Program-made: the position numbers and the translations under genes
The notes under the pieces: model-generated
Told to the model about the DNA's origin: nothing
Database searches by the model: none
What the model saw: only the letters and a program-made list of their open reading frames with translations
In this document: in pieces, positions 1,004 through 23,546 of the stretch
Layout of the letters: every line of letters begins with the position of its first letter
Numbering within the stretch: position 1 is the stretch's first letter
Virus record (IMG/VR): IMGVR_UViG_3300044267_000038
Span: 1 to 24,561 of that record
Strand: one strand, 5' to 3'
DNA length: 24,561 nucleotides
From: a virus
Taxonomy: Duplodnaviria > Caudoviricetes

Positions 1004-3772
1004 ATGCCTAAACAACTTTTAAGCATACCTAGCTTTACCGCTGGTGAGCTTTCATCATCTATGGAGGGTCGTACAGACTTCGCTAAATACTTTAACGGAG
1101 CAAGCAATATTGAAAATTTTGTTGTACTACCTCATGGACCCGTAACAAGACGACCAGGAACTTATTTTGTTTCTGAAGTTAAAACATCTGCAAATTCTAC
1201 ACGATTAATTCCATTCACATTTTCAACTGAACAAACTTATGTATTAGAATTTGGTAATAACTATATTCGTTTCTTTAAAGACAATGGTCAAATTACAGAA
1301 GGTAATAAAACTATTACTGGAATTACTCAAGCTAACCCAGCTGTCGTTACCTCAAGCTCTCATGGTTATTCCAATGGAGATTTTGTAAATATTTCTGGAG
1401 TTGTTGGTATGACAGAAGTTAATGGTAAAACTTTTAAAGTTGCTGATAAAACTACTAATACTTTTGAATTACAAAATGTTGATGGTACAGATATTAATTC
1501 ATCTAGTTACACAGCTTATTCTTCGGGTGGTATAGCAAACAAAATTTATCAAATCACAACTGAATATACGACAGCTCAACTCTTTGATTTAAAATTCGCA
1601 CAATCCGCAGATGTTATGTATATCTGCCACAACTCTCACGAAGTTATGAAACTTTCAAGAACGGGTCATACTTCTTGGACTTTATCAGAAGTCGATTTTG
1701 CAGAGACCGGACCCTATATGGATGCCAACACCACAACAACCACAATAACCCCAGCATCCGCTGGAACGGGTACAGGTGTTAATTTTACAGCTAGCGCCAT
1801 AGTTGGTATTAATGGTGGTGATGGTTGGAAAACAACAGATGTAGGAAGAATTTTAAAATTTAATAGTGGTGAGGCAGTTATTACAGCAAGAACTAATACA
1901 ACAGTTGTAGTCTGTACGATTACTAAAGCCTTTGCAAATACCGATGCTACTGCAACTTGGCAACTAGGTTCTTTTTCAGATACCACGGGTCATCCCGCTT
2001 GTGTGTCATTCTTTGAACAACGATTAGTATTTGCAGCAACAACCGATCAACCTCAAACTATGTTTTTTTCTAAATCGGGAGATTATGAAAACATGACATC
2101 TGGCTCAAATGCTGATGATGCTATGATTTATACCATTGCATCTAACCAAGTTAATGCCATTAAATCTTTAAAAGCCACAAGAACTTTAATTTGTATGACT
2201 ACAGGGGGTGAATATGCTGTAAGCTCTGGTTCATCTCAAGATGCTATTACTCCAACTAATATTAATATTAGAAAACAATCCAACTATGGATCTGCCGGAG
2301 TAGATGCTTTATCTATTGGAAACGCTACAATCTTTTTACAAAGAGCTAAAAGGAAAGTTAGAGAGCTTGCTTATAACTTTGATACAGATGGTTATGTTGC
2401 ACCAGACTTAACAATTTTGGCGGATCATATAACAGAAAGTGGAGTAGTTCAAATGGATTATCAACAAGAGCCTTACTCTGTTGTATGGGGAGCAAGAACG
2501 GATGGGGTATTATCTGGTTTAACTTACAATAGATTAGAAAATGTTGTTGCCTGGCACAGACACATTATAGGTGGCAAATCAGACACTACAAAAAACATTA
2601 TTCATCAACAAATTTCTTTCACATCTAATTCTTCAAATGTAAATACTACAAACAACACAATTACGATTTCATCACACGGATTATCTACAGCTGATCCAGT
2701 TTATTATTATGCAGCTAGTAATGCGATTGGCGGACTAGATAATTCAACATTATATTATGCTATCGCATCAGATAGTAACACAATCAAATTAGCAACAACT
2801 GCATCTAACGCTACTGCCGGAACTGCTATATCCTTTACTTCAGCTCCTAGCTCAGACACAACTCAATATATTTATCAAGGTGTAAATATCTCATCTAATT
2901 TTATTTATTCAGCTTCTCATGGTTTTACGACAGGTGATATATTTTATTACGACAACACAGGAACTGCCATTGGTGGTTTGTCTGAAAATACAAAATATTA
3001 CATTGAAAAAATAGACGACAATCAATTTAAACTTTATTCAAACAAAACTTTAGCAACTGTTGTCAGTTTAACATCAGCTCACACATCAGAACAAACTGAT
3101 AATATTTTAACTCATGCTAAAGTAGAAAGCGTAGCTGTCATTGATGGCGATGCAGATGAAGATCAAGTTTGGGTTATAGTTAAAAGATGGATTAATGGAG
3201 CGGTAAGAAGATATGTTGAATATTTTACTCCATTTGATTTTAATGAAGATTTAACTGCATTTCATTATTTAGATAGTGGATTAAGCTACACAGGAGATTT
3301 AACTTCAAGCCTTTCTGGTTTAGATCATTTAGAAGCAGAGGTGGTTGATATAATTGGAGAAGGATCAACGCAAAATTCAAAAACAGTTTCAAGCGGAGCT
3401 ATAACATTAACCAATGCTACCGAACAAGCTAAAGTTGGTTTATTATATACATCTGATTTACAAACAATGAGATTAGACGAAGGTTATACCGAAACAACAC
3501 AAACAAAAACAAAAAGAATTTATGACTTATCCGTTAGATTTCAAAATACAGTTGGTGCAAGTGTTGGACCCAATGCTGGTAATTTAACTTCAATAGACTT
3601 TAGAGCAAGTGGATCTCCTATGGATTTACCTATCCCATTATTTACAGGAGATAAATCTATTGAATTTGATACAGACTACGGAACAGAAGGCTTGGTTTAT
3701 GTGCAACAATCTCAAGCTTTACCTATGACGATACTTGGAATTTATCCTAGATTGGAGACAGAAAGTGTCTAA
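1004..3772 (+). CDS. Tail tubular protein B / nozzle with inserted repeat domains
   Basis: 922 aa with characteristic SFTAGELS...GRTD, RRPGT, FAQSADVMYI.H, FFEQRLVFA, VVAWHRH and YLDSG motifs. Confidence 0.88.
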   Translation: MPKQLLSIPSFTAGELSSSMEGRTDFAKYFNGASNIENFVVLPHGPVTRRPGTYFVSEVKTSANSTRLIPFTFSTEQTYVLEFGNNYIRFFKDNGQITEGNKTITGITQANPAVVTSSSHGYSNGDFVNISGVVGMTEVNGKTFKVADKTTNTFELQNVDGTDINSSSYTAYSSGGIANKIYQITTEYTTAQLFDLKFAQSADVMYICHNSHEVMKLSRTGHTSWTLSEVDFAETGPYMDANTTTTTITPASAGTGTGVNFTASAIVGINGGDGWKTTDVGRILKFNSGEAVITARTNTTVVVCTITKAFANTDATATWQLGSFSDTTGHPACVSFFEQRLVFAATTDQPQTMFFSKSGDYENMTSGSNADDAMIYTIASNQVNAIKSLKATRTLICMTTGGEYAVSSGSSQDAITPTNINIRKQSNYGSAGVDALSIGNATIFLQRAKRKVRELAYNFDTDGYVAPDLTILADHITESGVVQMDYQQEPYSVVWGARTDGVLSGLTYNRLENVVAWHRHIIGGKSDTTKNIIHQQISFTSNSSNVNTTNNTITISSHGLSTADPVYYYAASNAIGGLDNSTLYYAIASDSNTIKLATTASNATAGTAISFTSAPSSDTTQYIYQGVNISSNFIYSASHGFTTGDIFYYDNTGTAIGGLSENTKYYIEKIDDNQFKLYSNKTLATVVSLTSAHTSEQTDNILTHAKVESVAVIDGDADEDQVWVIVKRWINGAVRRYVEYFTPFDFNEDLTAFHYLDSGLSYTGDLTSSLSGLDHLEAEVVDIIGEGSTQNSKTVSSGAITLTNATEQAKVGLLYTSDLQTMRLDEGYTETTQTKTKRIYDLSVRFQNTVGASVGPNAGNLTSIDFRASGSPMDLPIPLFTGDKSIEFDTDYGTEGLVYVQQSQALPMTILGIYPRLETESV

Positions 3773-14560: not shown

Positions 14561-15277
14561 ATGTCAAAAAAAATAAATCCGTTAATACCTAAAGATGATC
14601 AATTATTAAATATATTAAGCGAGGATGAGGTAAAAGATTTTAAAGCTATGCGTCTTGAACTACAAGACACTTGGTTTAAAAATCAAATGTTTAGAACTGA
14701 AACTGAAATGAGGGTTTCTGTATTAAACGATCTTAAACACCCAACACCAGCTTCTAAATATTGGCAATCTGTTAGAGAACAGAATGTTATGTTTGAACAA
14801 TTAATAGTTCTTTCATTCGATTATAGAAAAAATGCAGTGTGTATTCAAAAACTTGAAAAAGAAATTGCAGAAGAAAAAGATCCTTTAGAAAGAGAACTTA
14901 AACAAGTAGATTTAGATGAACGACTTTATTGTAAAGCACATTTAGAACTTACAGCTAAAGATAGAATGAGAGAGTTAAAATTATGGTCTCATTTAAAATC
15001 AGAATTAGTTAAAGAAGATCCTAACTTTGACAAACAAAATGTTGCTACTCATCAAAAAGAATCTTTACCAAAAAGATTACTTCAAACCTGGAAATATTTT
15101 ACTGACGCAAAAGATGGTGATGGAGCAAAGAATATAGCTTCTCAAATTATAACAGCTACACGATTAAACAAAGAAGGAAGATTACCTGACATTAAAGAAT
15201 ATGAAGCTCTTAAACAAACAAAAGAATATAAAAATCTTCAAAAAAATCCAGTAGTTGATGATAAAATCGTTAAATAA
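14561..15277 (+). CDS. Hypothetical coiled-coil protein
   Basis: 238-aa ORF, charged and helical; overlaps the first oxygenase gene. Confidence 0.65.
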   Translation: MSKKINPLIPKDDQLLNILSEDEVKDFKAMRLELQDTWFKNQMFRTETEMRVSVLNDLKHPTPASKYWQSVREQNVMFEQLIVLSFDYRKNAVCIQKLEKEIAEEKDPLERELKQVDLDERLYCKAHLELTAKDRMRELKLWSHLKSELVKEDPNFDKQNVATHQKESLPKRLLQTWKYFTDAKDGDGAKNIASQIITATRLNKEGRLPDIKEYEALKQTKEYKNLQKNPVVDDKIVK

Positions 15278-15848
15278 TTTTTTATCATCTAATGAGCTTA
15301 ATTTAGCTATTGAATATTGGAAGATAAAAGAACAATCTTTAAAACCTTGTGGTCAAGAAAAAAATGCTGTTGCTGAATATTCAGATATTTTAAGTGAAAC
15401 ATTTTTAAAAATAAAACAGCCTATTATTGAAGAAGCTGTTGGAGAAAAGTTAATACCAACTTATAGCTATTCAAGAATGTATTATAAAGGCTCTGAATTA
15501 AAAAGGCATGTTGACAGACCACCATGCGAAATATCAGTTAGCTTTAGTATTTTTGGAACTGATAATTGGAAATTGTGGTTTCATAAATTAATTGAAGAAA
15601 GAGGTAAGGTGGTTGATCCTAATGCTCAACCTACTTCAATAACTATCAAAGCTGGTGATGGTGCAGTTTATGAGGGATGCCAGTATCAACATTGGAGAGA
15701 TCCGTATGATGGAGAAAAAGGTATGCAAATTTTTATACACTACATCAGAGCAAACGGAAGATATAAAGCTTTTACATACGATGGCAGAAAAACATTAGGT
15801 ATTCAAAAAACTAATCAAGCTATGAAAGAATTATGGAGTAATGTATAA
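15255..15848 (+). CDS. 2OG-Fe(II) oxygenase family protein
   Basis: YSRMY..G..L.RHVDR..CEIS (HxD), GDG..Y.G...HWR (distal His and Arg), QIFIHY. Confidence 0.85.
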   Translation: MMIKSLNNFLSSNELNLAIEYWKIKEQSLKPCGQEKNAVAEYSDILSETFLKIKQPIIEEAVGEKLIPTYSYSRMYYKGSELKRHVDRPPCEISVSFSIFGTDNWKLWFHKLIEERGKVVDPNAQPTSITIKAGDGAVYEGCQYQHWRDPYDGEKGMQIFIHYIRANGRYKAFTYDGRKTLGIQKTNQAMKELWSNV

Positions 15849-16465
15849 TGCCTATATGGTTAGAGCCTAAATGGAAATCTTACATTGTTGAATCTAATGC
15901 TCCTTTATTTACTAAAGAACAATGCGAACATATTATTAGAGTTGGTCAATCAATTAAACAAGAAGATGCAAAAGTTGGAAGCAATAAAACAAAAGATGGA
16001 AAAACAGAAACATCTGGAGTAAATGATTCTAAAAGAAGAATTACTACTGTTTCATGGTTACCTTTAGATCATAAAGAAACTGATCCTATGTATACTCTAG
16101 TTGATAGATGGGTTAAAAATATTAATATTAATCATTTTGGTTTTGAAGGCATACAAATAGGAGAGAGAGCGCAGTACACAGAATATCCAACTGGCGCTTT
16201 TTATGATTGGCATACAGATAGTGAAGTCAATATGACTACACAACCTACAGTTAGAAAAATGTCTATGACTTGTTTACTTTCTGATCCTTCTGAATTTGAA
16301 GGTGGAGAATTAGAATTAATTGGTGAATCTGAAACACCTAAAGCAAAAATGAAACAGGGTCATGCCGTATTCTTTGCAAGTTTTATTAGACATAGAGTTA
16401 AACCAGTAACTAAAGGAAATCGTAAATCTTTAGTAATGTGGTTTAGTGGACCACCATTTAAGTAA
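15848..16465 (+). CDS. 2OG-Fe(II) oxygenase (PKHD/prolyl-4-hydroxylase-like)
   Basis: QYTEY..G.FYDWHTD (HxD), RKMSMT..LSDP.EFEGGEL, HRVKPVTKG.RKSLVMW. Confidence 0.9.
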   Translation: MPIWLEPKWKSYIVESNAPLFTKEQCEHIIRVGQSIKQEDAKVGSNKTKDGKTETSGVNDSKRRITTVSWLPLDHKETDPMYTLVDRWVKNININHFGFEGIQIGERAQYTEYPTGAFYDWHTDSEVNMTTQPTVRKMSMTCLLSDPSEFEGGELELIGESETPKAKMKQGHAVFFASFIRHRVKPVTKGNRKSLVMWFSGPPFK

Positions 16466-19684: not shown

Positions 19685-21035
19685 TTTACTTCCTAATGCT
19701 GGAGACAATGCGTCATCAGCTCAGAGCGTAGATAATAATATACCTAATGTTGCCTCAAGCTGTTCAGAATTTACAGTAAATGGAGCAACTTGTTTTTCTA
19801 ATGAAATTGAAACAACGGGAACAGGTACAGTTAAAGCGACAGGCTCTTTATTAAATATTACAACTAACTCTGACACGACTACTCAAGATAAATTAAACAA
19901 TGGAATTACTTTAGATAGTACGAGTATTGTTCAAAACTGTGAATGGGATGGATCTTCTAATGAGTGTGGAGATAGAGCTGGTGCAAGAGATACTTTTAAA
20001 ACAACAGTAAAGATATTAGATACGAATGGAAATACTTTAGCATCAGTAGATCAGATAAGAAATACTGATAGCCATTATTATTCTAATGCTCATAAATATA
20101 CTGACCAAGTTATCTATACAGGAACAGGCTCTAATTCTTTTGATTGGACTTGGACAGGGATAGATAACAATGCTAATCCAGGTAATCTTGGTGGACCCAA
20201 TCTACTTGGTGCTTCTTTAACAATGACTTATGAGAATGTAGTTTTAGAAGTAGAAACACAAACAGCTTTAAATGAGGTTAGTAGTGTTATTAATGCTACT
20301 GAAATTGAAGAAGCAATAAGTGTTGAGATAAAAGAAGAAACTCAAACTTTAGCAACTAAGGTACAAACAATAGCAACAACACCTTTGCCTAGTAAAACTA
20401 AGGTGGTTCAAGTTACAGCAGCCATTAAAAAGTTTGAAAAGAAAACTGGAGCTAAAGTAGTTAAAGCTCAGATAACATCAAAGCCAACATCAACACCTAC
20501 TAATACACCAACAGCTGTGGTTCAAACTAAGAAAGTTAAAGAAGAAAAAAAACCCCAAGCTATTGCTAAACAAATAATACAATCAACTGCTAAGGAGGAA
20601 AAAGCAAATGAAAAAGAAGAAAAACAAGAAGAAAAAAAATCAGAAAAACAAGAAGAAAAACAAGAAAAGAAGATAGTATCTACTAAGACTAAAACTAAGA
20701 ATACTAAAGTTTCTAAGTTAGATGCTGCTATGGACAAGGTAGATGCTGTGGTTAAAGATACTGCCAAAAACCTTGAAGTAAAAAATATTATTTTATTAGA
20801 CGCTATAGCCGGAGAGAATAATCTTTCTGCTTATCTTAACCAAGTGTTTTATAAAACTAAAGATATTTACTTAAATCAAAATTTTATTATAGACAATCGA
20901 AAGATCTATAATGGAGTAAGTCTTGTAAGCTATATGGAAAACGATCCTTTGTTTATTAAAAACAAAATTTTACAAGATATTAATTACGAAAAACAAAGAC
21001 TCATCTTAAAATTAAAGGAGTTAAAAAATGGGTAA
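19608..21035 (+). CDS. Secreted multi-domain hypothetical protein with Lys/Glu-rich linker
   Basis: 475 aa; signal peptide ending TTSA|EE; N-terminal Thr/Asn-rich beta domain with 4 Cys; EEKQ repeats; helical C-terminus; SD AGGAG at 19594-19598. Confidence 0.75.
   Translation: MRYMLLILLLMMLTLTTSAEEITTGNLLPNAGDNASSAQSVDNNIPNVASSCSEFTVNGATCFSNEIETTGTGTVKATGSLLNITTNSDTTTQDKLNNGITLDSTSIVQNCEWDGSSNECGDRAGARDTFKTTVKILDTNGNTLASVDQIRNTDSHYYSNAHKYTDQVIYTGTGSNSFDWTWTGIDNNANPGNLGGPNLLGASLTMTYENVVLEVETQTALNEVSSVINATEIEEAISVEIKEETQTLATKVQTIATTPLPSKTKVVQVTAAIKKFEKKTGAKVVKAQITSKPTSTPTNTPTAVVQTKKVKEEKKPQAIAKQIIQSTAKEEKANEKEEKQEEKKSEKQEEKQEKKIVSTKTKTKNTKVSKLDAAMDKVDAVVKDTAKNLEVKNIILLDAIAGENNLSAYLNQVFYKTKDIYLNQNFIIDNRKIYNGVSLVSYMENDPLFIKNKILQDINYEKQRLILKLKELKNG
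20616..20669 (+). repeat. Imperfect GAAGAAAAACAA (EEKQ) coding repeats
   Basis: Purine-rich repeated 12-mers encoding EEKQEEKKSEKQEEKQEK. Confidence 0.6.
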
Positions 21036-21288
21036 ACTTAAAGATCAATTAGCTGGTATAGCTGCATTGATAGCAGCTGTAGTTGCAATCGGTGGTGGCT
21101 TTGCAAAGTTTGGAGAAATGCAAACACAATTAAATACTTTATCTGAACAGACAGCACCAGATCTTACACCGCTTGCTGCAAACATTGGTGAAAATAATAA
21201 AAATATTGCAGTATTAAAAACGGAAGTCGAATTACTTAATCTTATGATTAAGGAAATGAAAGCTAAAGCCTCAAATCCTTTACAGTAA
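21028..21288 (+). CDS. Membrane-anchored coiled-coil hypothetical protein
   Basis: 86 aa; TM segment LAGIAALIAAVVAIGGGF followed by a coiled coil; SD AAGGAG. Confidence 0.7.
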   Translation: MGKLKDQLAGIAALIAAVVAIGGGFAKFGEMQTQLNTLSEQTAPDLTPLAANIGENNKNIAVLKTEVELLNLMIKEMKAKASNPLQ

Positions 21289-21503
21289 TGGTTAAGAAAA
21301 CTTGGAGGAAGCTAACTCAAACAGTTCTTAATATTGGACCCTGTAGGTATTGCAAAAAGGATATGGTTAATACCGAGAGCTTTGTAGCTTTTCATGTGGG
21401 AGAACCTAAATTTGCTCATTATGAATGTATGAAAAAAGATGATGAGCTGAGAGAACAAAATTTAAAAGTAATAGAAAACGAAATAGAGCAAGCTATGTTT
21501 TAA
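21288..21503 (+). CDS. Small putative zinc-binding protein
   Basis: 71 aa with CxxC (CRYC) and HxxC (HYEC); last + strand gene, and its stop codon abuts the tRNA 3' end. Confidence 0.6.
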   Translation: MVKKTWRKLTQTVLNIGPCRYCKKDMVNTESFVAFHVGEPKFAHYECMKKDDELREQNLKVIENEIEQAMF

Positions 21504-21581
21504 TGGTCGGAGCGGTTGGATTCGAACCAACGACCCTCTGGTCCCAAACCAGATGCGCTGACCAGACTGCGCTACGCTCCG
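21504..21581 (-). tRNA. tRNA-Pro: tRNA-Pro (anticodon TGG), complete with encoded CCA
   Basis: Reverse complement is CGGAGCG TA GCGC AGTCTGGTCA GCGC A TCTGG TTTGGGA CCAGA GGGTC GTTGG TTCGAAT CCAAC CGCTCCG A CCA; all four stems pair fully. Confidence 0.97.
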
Positions 21582-21592
21582 AAACTTATAAA

Positions 21593-21614
21593 AAACAGAG
21601 ACTAAACAGAGACT
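21593..21614 (+). repeat. Tandem 11-bp direct repeats, putative integrase arm-type sites (left pair)
   Basis: AAACAGAGACT at 21593-21603 and 21604-21614. Confidence 0.75.
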
Positions 21615-21789
21615 ATACGATAAATCAATCTGATATATCACTTATAAATCAATGTTTATTTATATGGATTTTTGGCAACTTTTTTGTTTCTATTTTAAGT
21701 AGAATTGTTGTAAACATTAACTTAATTGGGGTTGTAGTCTATAGGTTCAAATACTATCGACAACCATTGGTATTGTTAATTAATTTAAC

Positions 21790-21812
21790 AAACAGAGACC
21801 AAAACAGAGACT
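21790..21812 (+). repeat. 11-bp direct repeats, putative integrase arm-type sites (right pair)
   Basis: AAACAGAGACC at 21790-21800 and AAACAGAGACT at 21802-21812. Confidence 0.75.
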
Positions 21813-21922
21813 AAAATAAATATTGTAAAAAACTTTAAAAAAGAAATTTTACGGGTATCTAATATATATAATGCAACACTTAAATAGCTTTCTATTAGAT
21901 AAATTAGTGAGCCGTACCTTGC

Positions 21923-22108
21923 TTATGGATAGGAGGTACCGGATGAACTAGAAGTATTAAGCGGGGATTTTTTAATCCCCGCTTTTTTTTTACATTCTTC
22001 TAAATATATTTTGTATTTTTTTTGAACAATATGATCCTTTTCAAAAGTAACAAAATGGTTCATTTCTAAAGTGAGCTTAAATAAAAGATAGCTCATTACT
22101 GAAGCCAC
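21923..22108 (-). CDS. Possible small hypothetical protein downstream of the integrase
   Basis: 61-aa ORF whose GTG start directly follows the integrase stop codon. Its 3' end runs through two + strand RNA structures, so coding status is uncertain. Confidence 0.35.
   Translation of the reverse strand: MASVMSYLLFKLTLEMNHFVTFEKDHIVQKKYKIYLEECKKKAGIKKSPLNTSSSSGTSYP
21959..21991 (+). terminator. Rho-independent terminator
   Basis: GCGGGGATT-TTTT-AATCCCCGC perfect 9-bp stem (21961-21982) followed by 9 T. Confidence 0.9.
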
Positions 22109-23278
22109 TTACGATAAAAGATTATTGATTGCTTTAGATCTTTTGTCTTTATTATGATCTATATCCCTGTAATACCACCTGTCAGGAGTATCAGAGTTAG
22201 TCCAGCCTAATCTTCTTAATAGCTGATCCTTTGGAAGAGCTTTAGTATCCTTTAGATAAGAATAACTAAACTTTCTAAAAGGTGATATTCCACCTTCCCA
22301 TTTAATCCCTAGTTTATCAGCAGCTTTTTGAACTTTTCTTTTAGCCATCTTCTTAGATACTTTGCCAAATATCATTCTATATTGACCAGCTCTCGTAGGC
22401 ATTGTTTGATCTTTCATCCAAGCTTTTAAAATTAAAACTAATTGTTTGCTTATTTCAACTCTTCTTTTAGAACTAGCAGTTTTTAAAAAGTTTTCTCTAA
22501 AGCCATTCCATTTATCAATAGTGTGGTTAAAGCTAATAGTCGGTGGATTACTTTTAAAATCAGGATCAGAATAAGTTAAACCTAACAATTCATTTAACCT
22601 ACAACCTGTTTCAGCAGCTGTATGAAATAAAGCTCTATTTAATAAATCCTTTTCTGAATTTACTAATAAAACTATATCCTTATACTTAGGCATAAACTTT
22701 TTCTTTGTATTTTCTCCTTGAAAAAAGTTTTTATTAAATTTCCAATCTAAGATTCCTCGATCAATAACCCATTTTCTTTCTAGGCAATACTTTACAAATA
22801 ATTTAAAGTTGGCAACTGTATCTTTAACAACCTTTTTACCAATCGTTTTATTGGTTCTAACTATTGTACTAATTCCACCTGGTAAGTTCTGAACTCTAGT
22901 GCATTTTGAGGCTAGGAGCTGCGGTAAGTAGCTTTCTTTAAAATCGTGGTAGGTGTAGTCGGATAACAGATCTTTGCTTATGTACGGCTGGATATGGTTG
23001 ATTATATAGCCACATATATGCAGTTTAGTCTCTTCTACCTTAAATTTATCCTTTAATACGGATTTCTTATATTCTTCAAAAGCAAGCTTAAAAGAAACCT
23101 CTTGTGGCATAACCAAATCTGGATCTCCGTTTTTCAATTCTAAAACATAAGCAAAGGCTTGTCTTTTTTGGTTAAGATTAAATATTTGTAAGTTTTTCTT
23201 TTTGCCTTGATTATCCATAGCTTGAACAACCCAAACTGATTTGGTTTTTCTTTTAACTTTACAGATTTTAAACTTCAT
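22109..23278 (-). CDS. int: Tyrosine integrase
   Basis: 389 aa; TGCRLNELLGL (Arg I), LKTASSKRRV (Lys), SPFRK (variant HxxR), LGW...DRWY (Trp and catalytic Tyr); SD AGGAGG; adjacent to the att-like region. Confidence 0.88.
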   Translation of the reverse strand: MKFKICKVKRKTKSVWVVQAMDNQGKKKNLQIFNLNQKRQAFAYVLELKNGDPDLVMPQEVSFKLAFEEYKKSVLKDKFKVEETKLHICGYIINHIQPYISKDLLSDYTYHDFKESYLPQLLASKCTRVQNLPGGISTIVRTNKTIGKKVVKDTVANFKLFVKYCLERKWVIDRGILDWKFNKNFFQGENTKKKFMPKYKDIVLLVNSEKDLLNRALFHTAAETGCRLNELLGLTYSDPDFKSNPPTISFNHTIDKWNGFRENFLKTASSKRRVEISKQLVLILKAWMKDQTMPTRAGQYRMIFGKVSKKMAKRKVQKAADKLGIKWEGGISPFRKFSYSYLKDTKALPKDQLLRRLGWTNSDTPDRWYYRDIDHNKDKRSKAINNLLS

Positions 23279-23546
23279 TAACCGCCTCCTTTATAGTTAT
23301 AGTTGTTGGTGGGATAGGTATTACATATTTAGAATATCCCTCATAAAAATAAGTAACAGGAACTTTAAAGAAATTAGCAAGATCTAATAATTTTTCTGAG
23401 CTAACTCCATTAGTTCCTTTTTCGTATTTTTGAATTTGTTGGAATGTGTAACCAATTCCTTCTCCAACTTTTGATTGTGTTAAACCTAATTGCAATCTTT
23501 TAAATTTAATTTTTTTTCCTAGGTGTTTATTAAAGCTATTTTCCAT
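23268..23546 (-). CDS. XRE-family HTH transcriptional regulator (repressor candidate)
   Basis: LGKKIK.KR..LGLTQ..VG..IG.TFQQIQKYEKGTN...L..LA.FF.VPV.YFYEG, an alphaproteobacterial-type XRE signature; SD AAGGAG. Confidence 0.92.
   Translation of the reverse strand: MENSFNKHLGKKIKFKRLQLGLTQSKVGEGIGYTFQQIQKYEKGTNGVSSEKLLDLANFFKVPVTYFYEGYSKYVIPIPPTTITIKEAVNEV

What the first reader, a model, noticed from the sequence alone, without database searches (positions are those of the whole stretch)
21504..21991. Complete phage tRNA-Pro beside an attP whose tRNA 3'-end copy looks broken: candidate tRNA-compensating lysogeny
Seen: both pairs of 11-bp repeats lie on one side of the intact tRNA-Pro, so the tRNA itself is unlikely to be the crossover core. 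Between the pairs, on the + strand, is ATAGG-TTCAAAT-ACTAT-CGACAACCA (21741-21766). This resembles a tRNA T-arm plus 3' end, but it has a G-A mismatch at the loop-closing pair and only 9 nt after the T-stem instead of 11. A + strand terminator follows. Known: tyrosine integrases often recombine in the 7-nt T-loop and normally supply an exact 3' copy to restore the tRNA. Some actinobacteriophages instead disrupt the host tRNA and depend on their own tRNA gene for lysogeny. Inference: integration here would destroy a host tRNA, and the phage's own tRNA-Pro(UGG) would replace it, making the prophage essential while integrated. Which host tRNA the remnant derives from (Pro, fMet or other) cannot be decided from the window.
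Basis: partly seen in the sequence, partly recalled or inferred. Interest (0 to 1): 0.78.

Follow-up and report, generated by a model that had tools for sequence, protein, structure and literature searches.

The report
Pelagiphage attP with replacement proline tRNA
This marine phage, a relative of viruses of SAR11 bacteria, carries an integration site that would cut the host's proline tRNA gene without repairing it, plus its own proline tRNA gene that likely replaces the lost one; this strategy is known, but here relatives with the repairing and the replacing design can be compared side by side.

Summary
Observation confirmed; interpretation supported by comparative evidence but not by a junction. 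The window is an HTVC010P-type phage (tail protein 61% identical) with a lambda-like tyrosine integrase. Across integrase relatives (33-100% identity) two arm-repeat pairs flank a T-loop-like TTCRAAT core at conserved distances. Of 63 scorable loci, 45 have a broken 3' copy plus their own tRNA-Pro(UGG), 17 have an intact tRNA-Pro 3' end and no tRNA, 1 has both, and none is broken without a tRNA. The states are interleaved on the integrase tree: 4 changes and 4 independent pairs, none discordant, too few for significance (p 0.125). So the target is very likely host tRNA-Pro, cut at the T-loop. No attL/attR junction was found, and no SAR11 genome was examined. tRNA-dependent lysogeny is published (PMC10865867), as is replacement-tRNA integration in T7-like pelagiphages (10.1101/410191); this scan noted other cases on other DNA. 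New here: phage group, T-loop crossover, and the within-family contrast.

The parts
21504..21581 (-). Complete phage tRNA-Pro(UGG) gene with encoded CCA; proposed replacement for the host gene
   Evidence: ARAGORN, Rfam 69.2 bits, cloverleaf fold; same site and anticodon in 46 of 63 scorable relatives, 17 distinct sequences, the 16 others 68-84% like the window's
21593..21614 (+). Left pair of arm-type integrase sites (11-nt spacing), inferred
   Evidence: equivalent pair about -150/-139 from the core in relatives, with clade-specific sequence
21737..21744 (+). Left core-type site GTCTATAG, inferred
   Evidence: T at -4 invariant in 29 of 29 distinct cores and not required by the search pattern; 7 of 8 symmetric with the right site
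21746..21752 (+). Predicted 7-bp overlap TTCAAAT, equal to a tRNA T-loop
   Evidence: Same position holds the T-loop of an intact tRNA-Pro 3' end in sister clades; only the purine that also varies in tRNA T-loops toggles, in 4 of 12 att groups with two or more members
21753..21768 (+). Right flank: positional homologue of the tRNA-Pro 3' end, broken (11 of 16 differences); contains the inferred right core-type site CTATCGAC at 21754-21761
21790..21812 (+). Right pair of arm-type sites (12-nt spacing), inferred
   Evidence: +47/+59 from the core here, +47 to +82 in relatives
21959..21991 (+). Intrinsic-terminator-like hairpin with T run; would stop transcription running from the broken host tRNA toward int after integration (inference)
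   Evidence: similar GC hairpins with T runs right of the arms in relatives
21923..22096 (-). 57-aa ORF right behind int, conserved N-terminal 36 aa; candidate directionality factor (unsupported guess)
   Evidence: Homologues in 23 of 75 loci, the window's twin L001 included; no PHROG match
22109..23278 (-). Tyrosine integrase, 389 aa, three-domain lambda/Tn916-like fold with an N-terminal three-strand-plus-helix domain
   Evidence: PHROG 1; Pfam PF00589 in 45 of 45 homologues; R227, K266, R335, Y369 invariant in 45 of 45 and W359 in 43 of 45, first His replaced; model pLDDT 85.8; best folds Tn1549 Int and lambda Int
23268..23546 (-). HTH transcriptional regulator upstream of int (repressor-like)
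   Evidence: PHROGs 8, 4, 3
1004..3772 (+). Tail tubular protein B, marker that places the phage among HTVC010P-type pelagiphages
   Evidence: Best hit HTVC010P, 61.2% identity over 82%; all 15 listed hits are Pelagibacter phages

Best explanation
This is likely a tRNA-dependent integration module of an HTVC010P-type phage: its integrase is predicted to recombine the 7-bp core at 21746-21752 with the T-loop of the host's tRNA-Pro(UGG) gene, which would leave that gene broken, and the phage's own tRNA-Pro(UGG) 165 bp away would supply the lost function. Shown: an integrase with intact catalytic residues; arm pairs on both sides of the core; the core sits where sister phages keep an intact tRNA-Pro 3' end; broken core and phage tRNA co-occur without exception. 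Inferred: Int binds the arms and the inverted core-type sites and exchanges strands across TTCRAAT. attL would then join the host 5' part to the phage flank, which loses most acceptor-stem pairs and the CCA. The phage tRNA would end up next to attR, pointing into the prophage. Since only a UGG anticodon reads CCA codons (established decoding rule), a host with one such gene would depend on the phage copy until precise excision restores attB. The host is inferred to be SAR11 from phage kinship.
For: Contingency in 63 scorable of 75 loci: 45 broken+tRNA, 17 intact+none, 1 intact+tRNA (L018), 0 broken+none. States interleave on the integrase tree, 4 changes each; 4 independent pairs, 3-4 concordant and 0 discordant over 200 pairings. 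Arm geometry is conserved around the core although arm sequences differ. The tRNA gene is replaced by different tRNA-Pro(UGG) sequences next to near-identical att sites (L001, L003, L004), so the isotype is kept, not the sequence. The tRNA follows this integrase, not the backbone: 0 of 77 loci that share the neighbouring late gene but lack this integrase carry any tRNA; 64 of them have at least 1 kb beyond the gene (counted from its output). With three viral tRNA-Pro genes as stand-ins for the host, the window's flank cuts T-stem pairs from 5 to 3 and acceptor pairs from 7 to 2-3, and removes ACCA. Du et al. list tRNA-Pro-TGG as SAR11 attB for 20 HTVC010P-type genomes (PMC8477408 supplement).
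Against: No integrated copy was seen. 0 broken-attL matches in viral contigs. 40 matches in metagenomes, none near this integrase; most are degenerate tRNA-Pro 3' halves without a tRNA 5' end, host not tested. No attR among 23 intact-3'-end hits. Only other phage att sites turned up among loose ends in four seawater runs. The independent-pairs test cannot reach significance (median p 0.125, quick tree only), and the Fisher p of 2e-14 ignores kinship. No SAR11 genome was examined, so the host tRNA sequence and copy number are untested. No tRNA-specific promoter was identified; one weak 9/12 site lies at 21641-21612. TTCRAAT is shared by many tRNAs, so broken-type integrases could have moved to other targets.
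Confidence: 0.8

Rival explanations
1. Integration breaks host tRNA-Pro as described, but the phage tRNA is helpful rather than required, because hosts have a second UGG gene or the lysogen state is transient.
For: Host copy number was not tested; no lysogen was seen.
Against: 0 of 45 broken-core loci lack the tRNA. A freshwater SAR11 genome has only 31 tRNA genes (PMC6811365), which leaves little room for duplicates.
Confidence: 0.09
2. The tRNA serves lytic translation or counter-defence. The core has decayed or retargeted for unrelated reasons, and the two traits are linked only by descent.
For: CCA is the commonest Pro codon in 20 window ORFs (92 of 189). Only 4 independent contrasts exist.
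Against: 0 of 77 backbone-sharing loci without this integrase have a tRNA. The tRNA sits 157-188 nt from the core in all 46 cases. Catalytic residues, arms and core symmetry are conserved. The seven HTVC010P-type isolates of Du et al. have no tRNA.
Confidence: 0.07
3. The complete tRNA-Pro gene is itself the attP identity block, and integration restores the host tRNA in the ordinary way.
For: Du et al. assigned attB tRNA-Pro-TGG by BLASTn with 14-43 bp cores; their Fig. 4 could not be seen, so which sequence they matched is unknown.
Against: All arm repeats lie on one side of the tRNA. The tRNA points the opposite way to the intact 3' copy of sister clades. None of 17 distinct phage tRNAs has the CCTGC stem of that copy. 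L018 has both the tRNA and an intact core.
Confidence: 0.03

Closest known systems
tRNA-dependent lysogeny of actinobacteriophages (Fionnbharth/K4, cluster L, Gaia; Guerrero-Bustamante & Hatfull 2024, PMC10865867; abstract, sections 6, 10, 11 and passages read)
   Same: Tyrosine integrase with arm sites flanking a short core that does not rebuild the tRNA; cognate phage tRNA; close relatives that rebuild the tRNA and lack the gene.
   Different: Here the predicted crossover is in the T-loop; the paper calls the anticodon loop common for mycobacteriophage sites and has 0 occurrences of 'T-loop', 'SAR11' or 'pelagi'. The isotype is Pro(UGG), absent from their Table 2. Presumed alphaproteobacterial host. 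No experiment here.
T7-like pelagiphages HTVC019P, HTVC025P, HTVC119P, HTVC200P (Zhao et al., bioRxiv 10.1101/410191; passages and section 11 read) and uv-Fonsiphage-EPL (PMC6811365; passages read)
   Same: SAR11 phages that split a host tRNA gene on integration, with the phage tRNA described as 'likely used instead'; HTVC011P has both a repairing core and its own tRNA, like L018.
   Different: Different phage group (HTVC019P-type); tRNA-Cys and tRNA-Leu, cores in the middle of the gene; their junctions were sequenced, ours were not.
HTVC010P-type subgroup II temperate pelagiphages (Du et al. 2021, PMC8477408; passages and both parts of the supplement read, figures not visible)
   Same: Same phage group, integrase with attP downstream, tRNA-Pro-TGG listed as attB for 20 metagenomic genomes.
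   Different: The passages read describe repair of tRNA-Asn by HTVC028P and report no tRNA in the seven isolates; they do not describe broken cores or replacement tRNA-Pro. No isolate in the phage collection has a full-length relative of this integrase.

Membership tests
tRNA-dependent lysogeny (PMC10865867) | Phage-encoded tyrosine integrase | tested here: met
tRNA-dependent lysogeny (PMC10865867) | attB overlaps a host tRNA gene | tested here: inconclusive
   Inferred from intact tRNA-Pro 3' ends at the homologous position in sister clades and from Du et al. Table S4; no junction found
tRNA-dependent lysogeny (PMC10865867) | Short (about 10 bp) common core that cannot rebuild the tRNA | tested here: met
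   Right flank differs at 11 of 16 positions from the intact 3' end; pairing lost with stand-in tRNAs; true host sequence not available
tRNA-dependent lysogeny (PMC10865867) | [quoted passage not shown] | tested here: met
   tRNA-Pro(UGG) in the window and in 45 of 45 broken-core loci
tRNA-dependent lysogeny (PMC10865867) | Host tRNA essential (single copy) | not tested
tRNA-dependent lysogeny (PMC10865867) | Phage tRNA required for lysogen survival | not testable with these tools
   Needs a deletion or vector experiment
HTVC010P-type pelagiphages | Structural genes closest to HTVC010P-type phages | tested here: met
   Tail tubular B 61% to HTVC010P; one gene tested
HTVC010P-type pelagiphages | At least 40% shared genes (Du et al. 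criterion) and a SAR11 host | not tested
   Window is a partial genome; host inferred from kinship
Lambda-type heterobivalent integrase attP | N-terminal arm-binding domain and direct-repeat arm pairs on both sides of a symmetric core | tested here: met
   Model shows three strands plus a helix at residues 2-50 (its likeness to an arm-binding domain is recalled, and no Pfam arm family matched); lambda Int aligns over 398 columns; repeats. Binding not tested

The most novel reading that the evidence does not exclude
This integrase family has switched repeatedly between repairing and replacing the host tRNA-Pro, and the switch pays. Once the phage owns a tRNA, the right core site is freed from copying the tRNA and converges on a palindrome of the left site (median 6 vs 4 of 8 matches). 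The phage then no longer has to match the host's acceptor-stem allele (two intact alleles seen). Its own tRNA has a recoded T-stem that escapes its own integrase (0 of 17 GYAGG vs 40 of 106 other viral tRNA-Pro; T at position 51 in 12 of 17 vs 4 of 106). L018, with both features, would be the intermediate. The result is a decay-proof prophage end in the ocean's most abundant bacteria.
Probability: 0.35. Interest if true: 0.65.

Novelty: new variant of a known kind. Interest (0 to 1): 0.5.

Why it matters
It extends tRNA-dependent lysogeny to a second, very abundant group of SAR11 phages and to T-loop-targeting integrases. It also offers a natural experiment on a question the defining paper leaves open (PMC10865867, Discussion): whether tRNA gain came before or after loss of the repairing core. 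It shows that BLAST-based attP calls can miss such cores or take the phage's own tRNA for the core. Matched repairing and replacing int-attP pairs could become integration vectors for SAR11, where genetic tools are scarce (own knowledge).

Tried and rejected
Junction searches gave nothing: broken-attL pattern, 0 in viral contigs and 40 unrelated hits in metagenome contigs; full tRNA-Pro with the intact 3' end, 77 viral hits and none near this integrase; intact 3' end without tRNA context, 23 hits, of which 20 have the integrase in the locus, L204 and L209 are family att sites cut short, and L215 is an unrelated high-GC phage; reads laid from seawater runs showed only other phage att sites. The patterns assume a GYAGG host T-stem and exact matches, so they do not show absence. 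The GTDB scan found one close integrase, on an 8.5-kb, 33% GC contig in a MAG labelled Verrucomicrobia (L079); it resembles the window's early genes and att region, the MAG's region L081 is 41% GC, and no other tRNA-Pro match was found in it, so I treat it as probably mis-binned and not as host evidence. RNA run X17 has two depth-2 contigs at 21604-21754 and 21781-21931, which is no evidence of expression. The remnant as a structured RNA was rejected. The remnant as fMet or another isotype was rejected, because intact sisters end in CCGACCA. A full IQ-TREE search did not finish; the quick tree was used. Paper searches for pelagiphage + tRNA-Pro, SAR11 + prophage + tRNA-Pro and Pelagibacter + tRNA-Pro + prophage listed no paper on this system; listings only, and paywalled papers and figures were not covered.

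Full report
What the window is. A partial phage genome: structural and lysis genes on +, then an early block on - that ends in an HTH regulator (23268-23546) and a 389-aa integrase (22109-23278). Tail tubular protein B is closest to Pelagibacter phage HTVC010P (61%). The DNA is held by seawater and aquatic viral metagenome runs. The SAR11 host is inferred from this kinship only. The integrase keeps R227, K266, R335 and Y369 in 45 of 45 homologues. Its model has an N-terminal three-strand-plus-helix domain, and it folds like Tn1549 and lambda integrases.

The tRNA, the four 11-mers, the T-loop mimic and the hairpin are at the stated places. The repeats are far beyond chance (4 vs 0.05). The mimic alone is not.

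Relatives decide it. A profile of 45 homologues fetched 74 viral loci and 2 genome loci. I scored 75, leaving out the 31% fragment L080. In every clade inspected, a pair of direct repeats lies about 150/139 nt left of a TTCRAAT loop and another pair 47-82 nt to its right, although the repeat sequence differs between clades (18 representatives shown). The loop and the A at -3 were part of my search pattern, so their invariance is by construction. Their position is not: 157-188 nt from the tRNA in 46 of 46 tRNA-bearing loci. Nor is the invariance of T at -4 and of the third base after the loop in 29 of 29 distinct cores. What follows the loop falls into two classes: a perfect tRNA-Pro 3' end (CCTGCCRCYCCGACCA, 0 differences) or a sequence 7-12 of 16 bases away from it. 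Among 63 loci with core and flank visible: 45 broken with phage tRNA-Pro(UGG), 17 intact without, 1 intact with (L018), 0 broken without. Dropped: 7 with the core off the contig, 4 ending within 300 nt of the core (2 intact, 2 broken) and L048, whose core is a tRNA-Arg-like 3' half and which has no tRNA. L004 adds one more broken+tRNA case and L209 one more intact without tRNA. Many rows are near-duplicates. On the quick integrase tree (72 rows; 3 fragments under 250 aa left out) each trait changes 4 times. There are 4 independent pairs, none discordant, median p 0.125. The association is strong but rests on few events.

Control for the backbone. The late gene next to the tRNA (21028-21288) fetched the best 80 of 377 loci. 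Three carry this integrase family; only the two with the broken Pro core have a tRNA; 0 of the other 77 have one. The tRNA therefore travels with the integration module. Its sequence is exchanged freely: three near-identical att regions carry three different tRNA-Pro(UGG) genes, and the other 16 distinct genes are 68-84% like the window's.

How it most likely works. Inferred steps: Int bound to arms and core-type sites exchanges strands across TTCRAAT with the T-loop of host tRNA-Pro. The purine in the loop toggles A/G within otherwise identical att sites in 4 of 12 multi-member groups, as it does in tRNA T-loops; this fits repeated exchange with hosts but is indirect. attL would join the host 5' part to 21753 onward. 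With stand-in tRNAs this leaves 3 of 5 T-stem and 2-3 of 7 acceptor pairs and no CCA. The phage tRNA lands beside attR. By decoding rules (established knowledge) CCA codons need a UGG anticodon, so a single-copy host would need the phage gene until excision.

Two further patterns, both suggestive only, since the sequences are related. Broken right flanks mirror the left flank better than intact ones (15 vs 5 distinct sites, median 6 vs 4 of 8, p 0.02). And the phage tRNAs avoid the GYAGG T-stem implied for attB: 0 of 17 against 40 of 106 other viral tRNA-Pro genes, the control being 120 hits from 3 of 64 parts of the collection. On the narrower CCTGC test the difference is not significant (0 of 17 vs 12 of 106, p 0.22). 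Shared ancestry could also explain it.

What is missing. No junction, no host genome, no promoter, no expression.

Comparison with what is known. PMC10865867 defines tRNA-dependent lysogeny and shows it experimentally (abstract, sections 6, 10, 11, passages). Zhao et al. (10.1101/410191; passages and section 11; supplements closed) sequenced junctions showing that HTVC019P, 025P, 119P and 200P split host tRNA-Cys or tRNA-Leu, with the phage tRNA 'likely used instead'. Chen et al. (PMC6811365; passages) say the same of a Fonsibacter prophage. PMC10533544 (passages) links marine provirus target tRNAs to virus-encoded tRNAs in bulk. PMC3861242 (passages) describes the exact-match attP method. Du et al. 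(PMC8477408; passages and supplement) list tRNA-Pro-TGG as attB for 20 HTVC010P-type genomes; their Fig. 4, which might show which sequence was taken as the core, could not be seen. The module works like tRNA-dependent lysogeny and meets three defining features. The target is inconclusive without a junction, and essentiality is untested.

Verdict. It is a new variant of a known strategy: T-loop crossover, proline isotype, HTVC010P-type phages, and an unusually clean within-family contrast. Interest 0.5.

Noticed in passing
L048 (downstream of its integrase); same contig as L346: A 39%-identical integrase whose attP holds a tRNA-Arg(TCT)-like 3' half from the anticodon loop on; its arm spacing fits an anticodon-loop crossover, so the family may have shifted between tRNA loops. 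Its neighbouring late gene is 84% identical to the window's, which points to swapping of the integration module.
   Followed up: partly
L018:3478-3554 and its attP: Only locus with both a phage tRNA-Pro and an intact 3' copy; candidate evolutionary intermediate, or a copy regained from a host.
   Followed up: partly
window 21923-22096 (-): Small ORF right behind int, with homologues in 23 of 75 loci and no PHROG match; possible directionality factor.
   Followed up: partly
L035 and L044 (one 69.7-kb IMG/VR contig): One contig holds two different integrases, one intact-type and one broken-type, each with an unhybridised attP; probably two phage genomes assembled together.
   Followed up: no
L215:2501-2529: A high-GC phage with no match to this integrase also has a T-loop plus tRNA-Pro 3' end at an att-like site.
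   Followed up: no
window about 21640-21725: AT-rich motifs between the left arms and the core (AATCAA..TTAT, TTTTG[G/T]CAA, AAGTGTT.TA) recur in both att types; likely host-factor or directionality-factor sites (label recalled, not tested).
   Followed up: no
L161, L165, L168-L170, L176-L179, L183-L186, L190-L192: Low-GC marine contigs with degenerate tRNA-Pro 3' halves and no tRNA 5' end, resembling decayed island attachment sites; host not determined.
   Followed up: no
window 15255-16465 (+): Two adjacent ORFs with motifs that look like 2OG-Fe(II) oxygenases (recalled, not scanned), a common accessory gene type in marine phages.
   Followed up: no
window 21501-21506: The tRNA's CCA end abuts the stop codon of the convergent 71-aa ORF; in many relatives the tRNA likewise abuts the stop codon of whichever late gene comes last.
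   Followed up: partly
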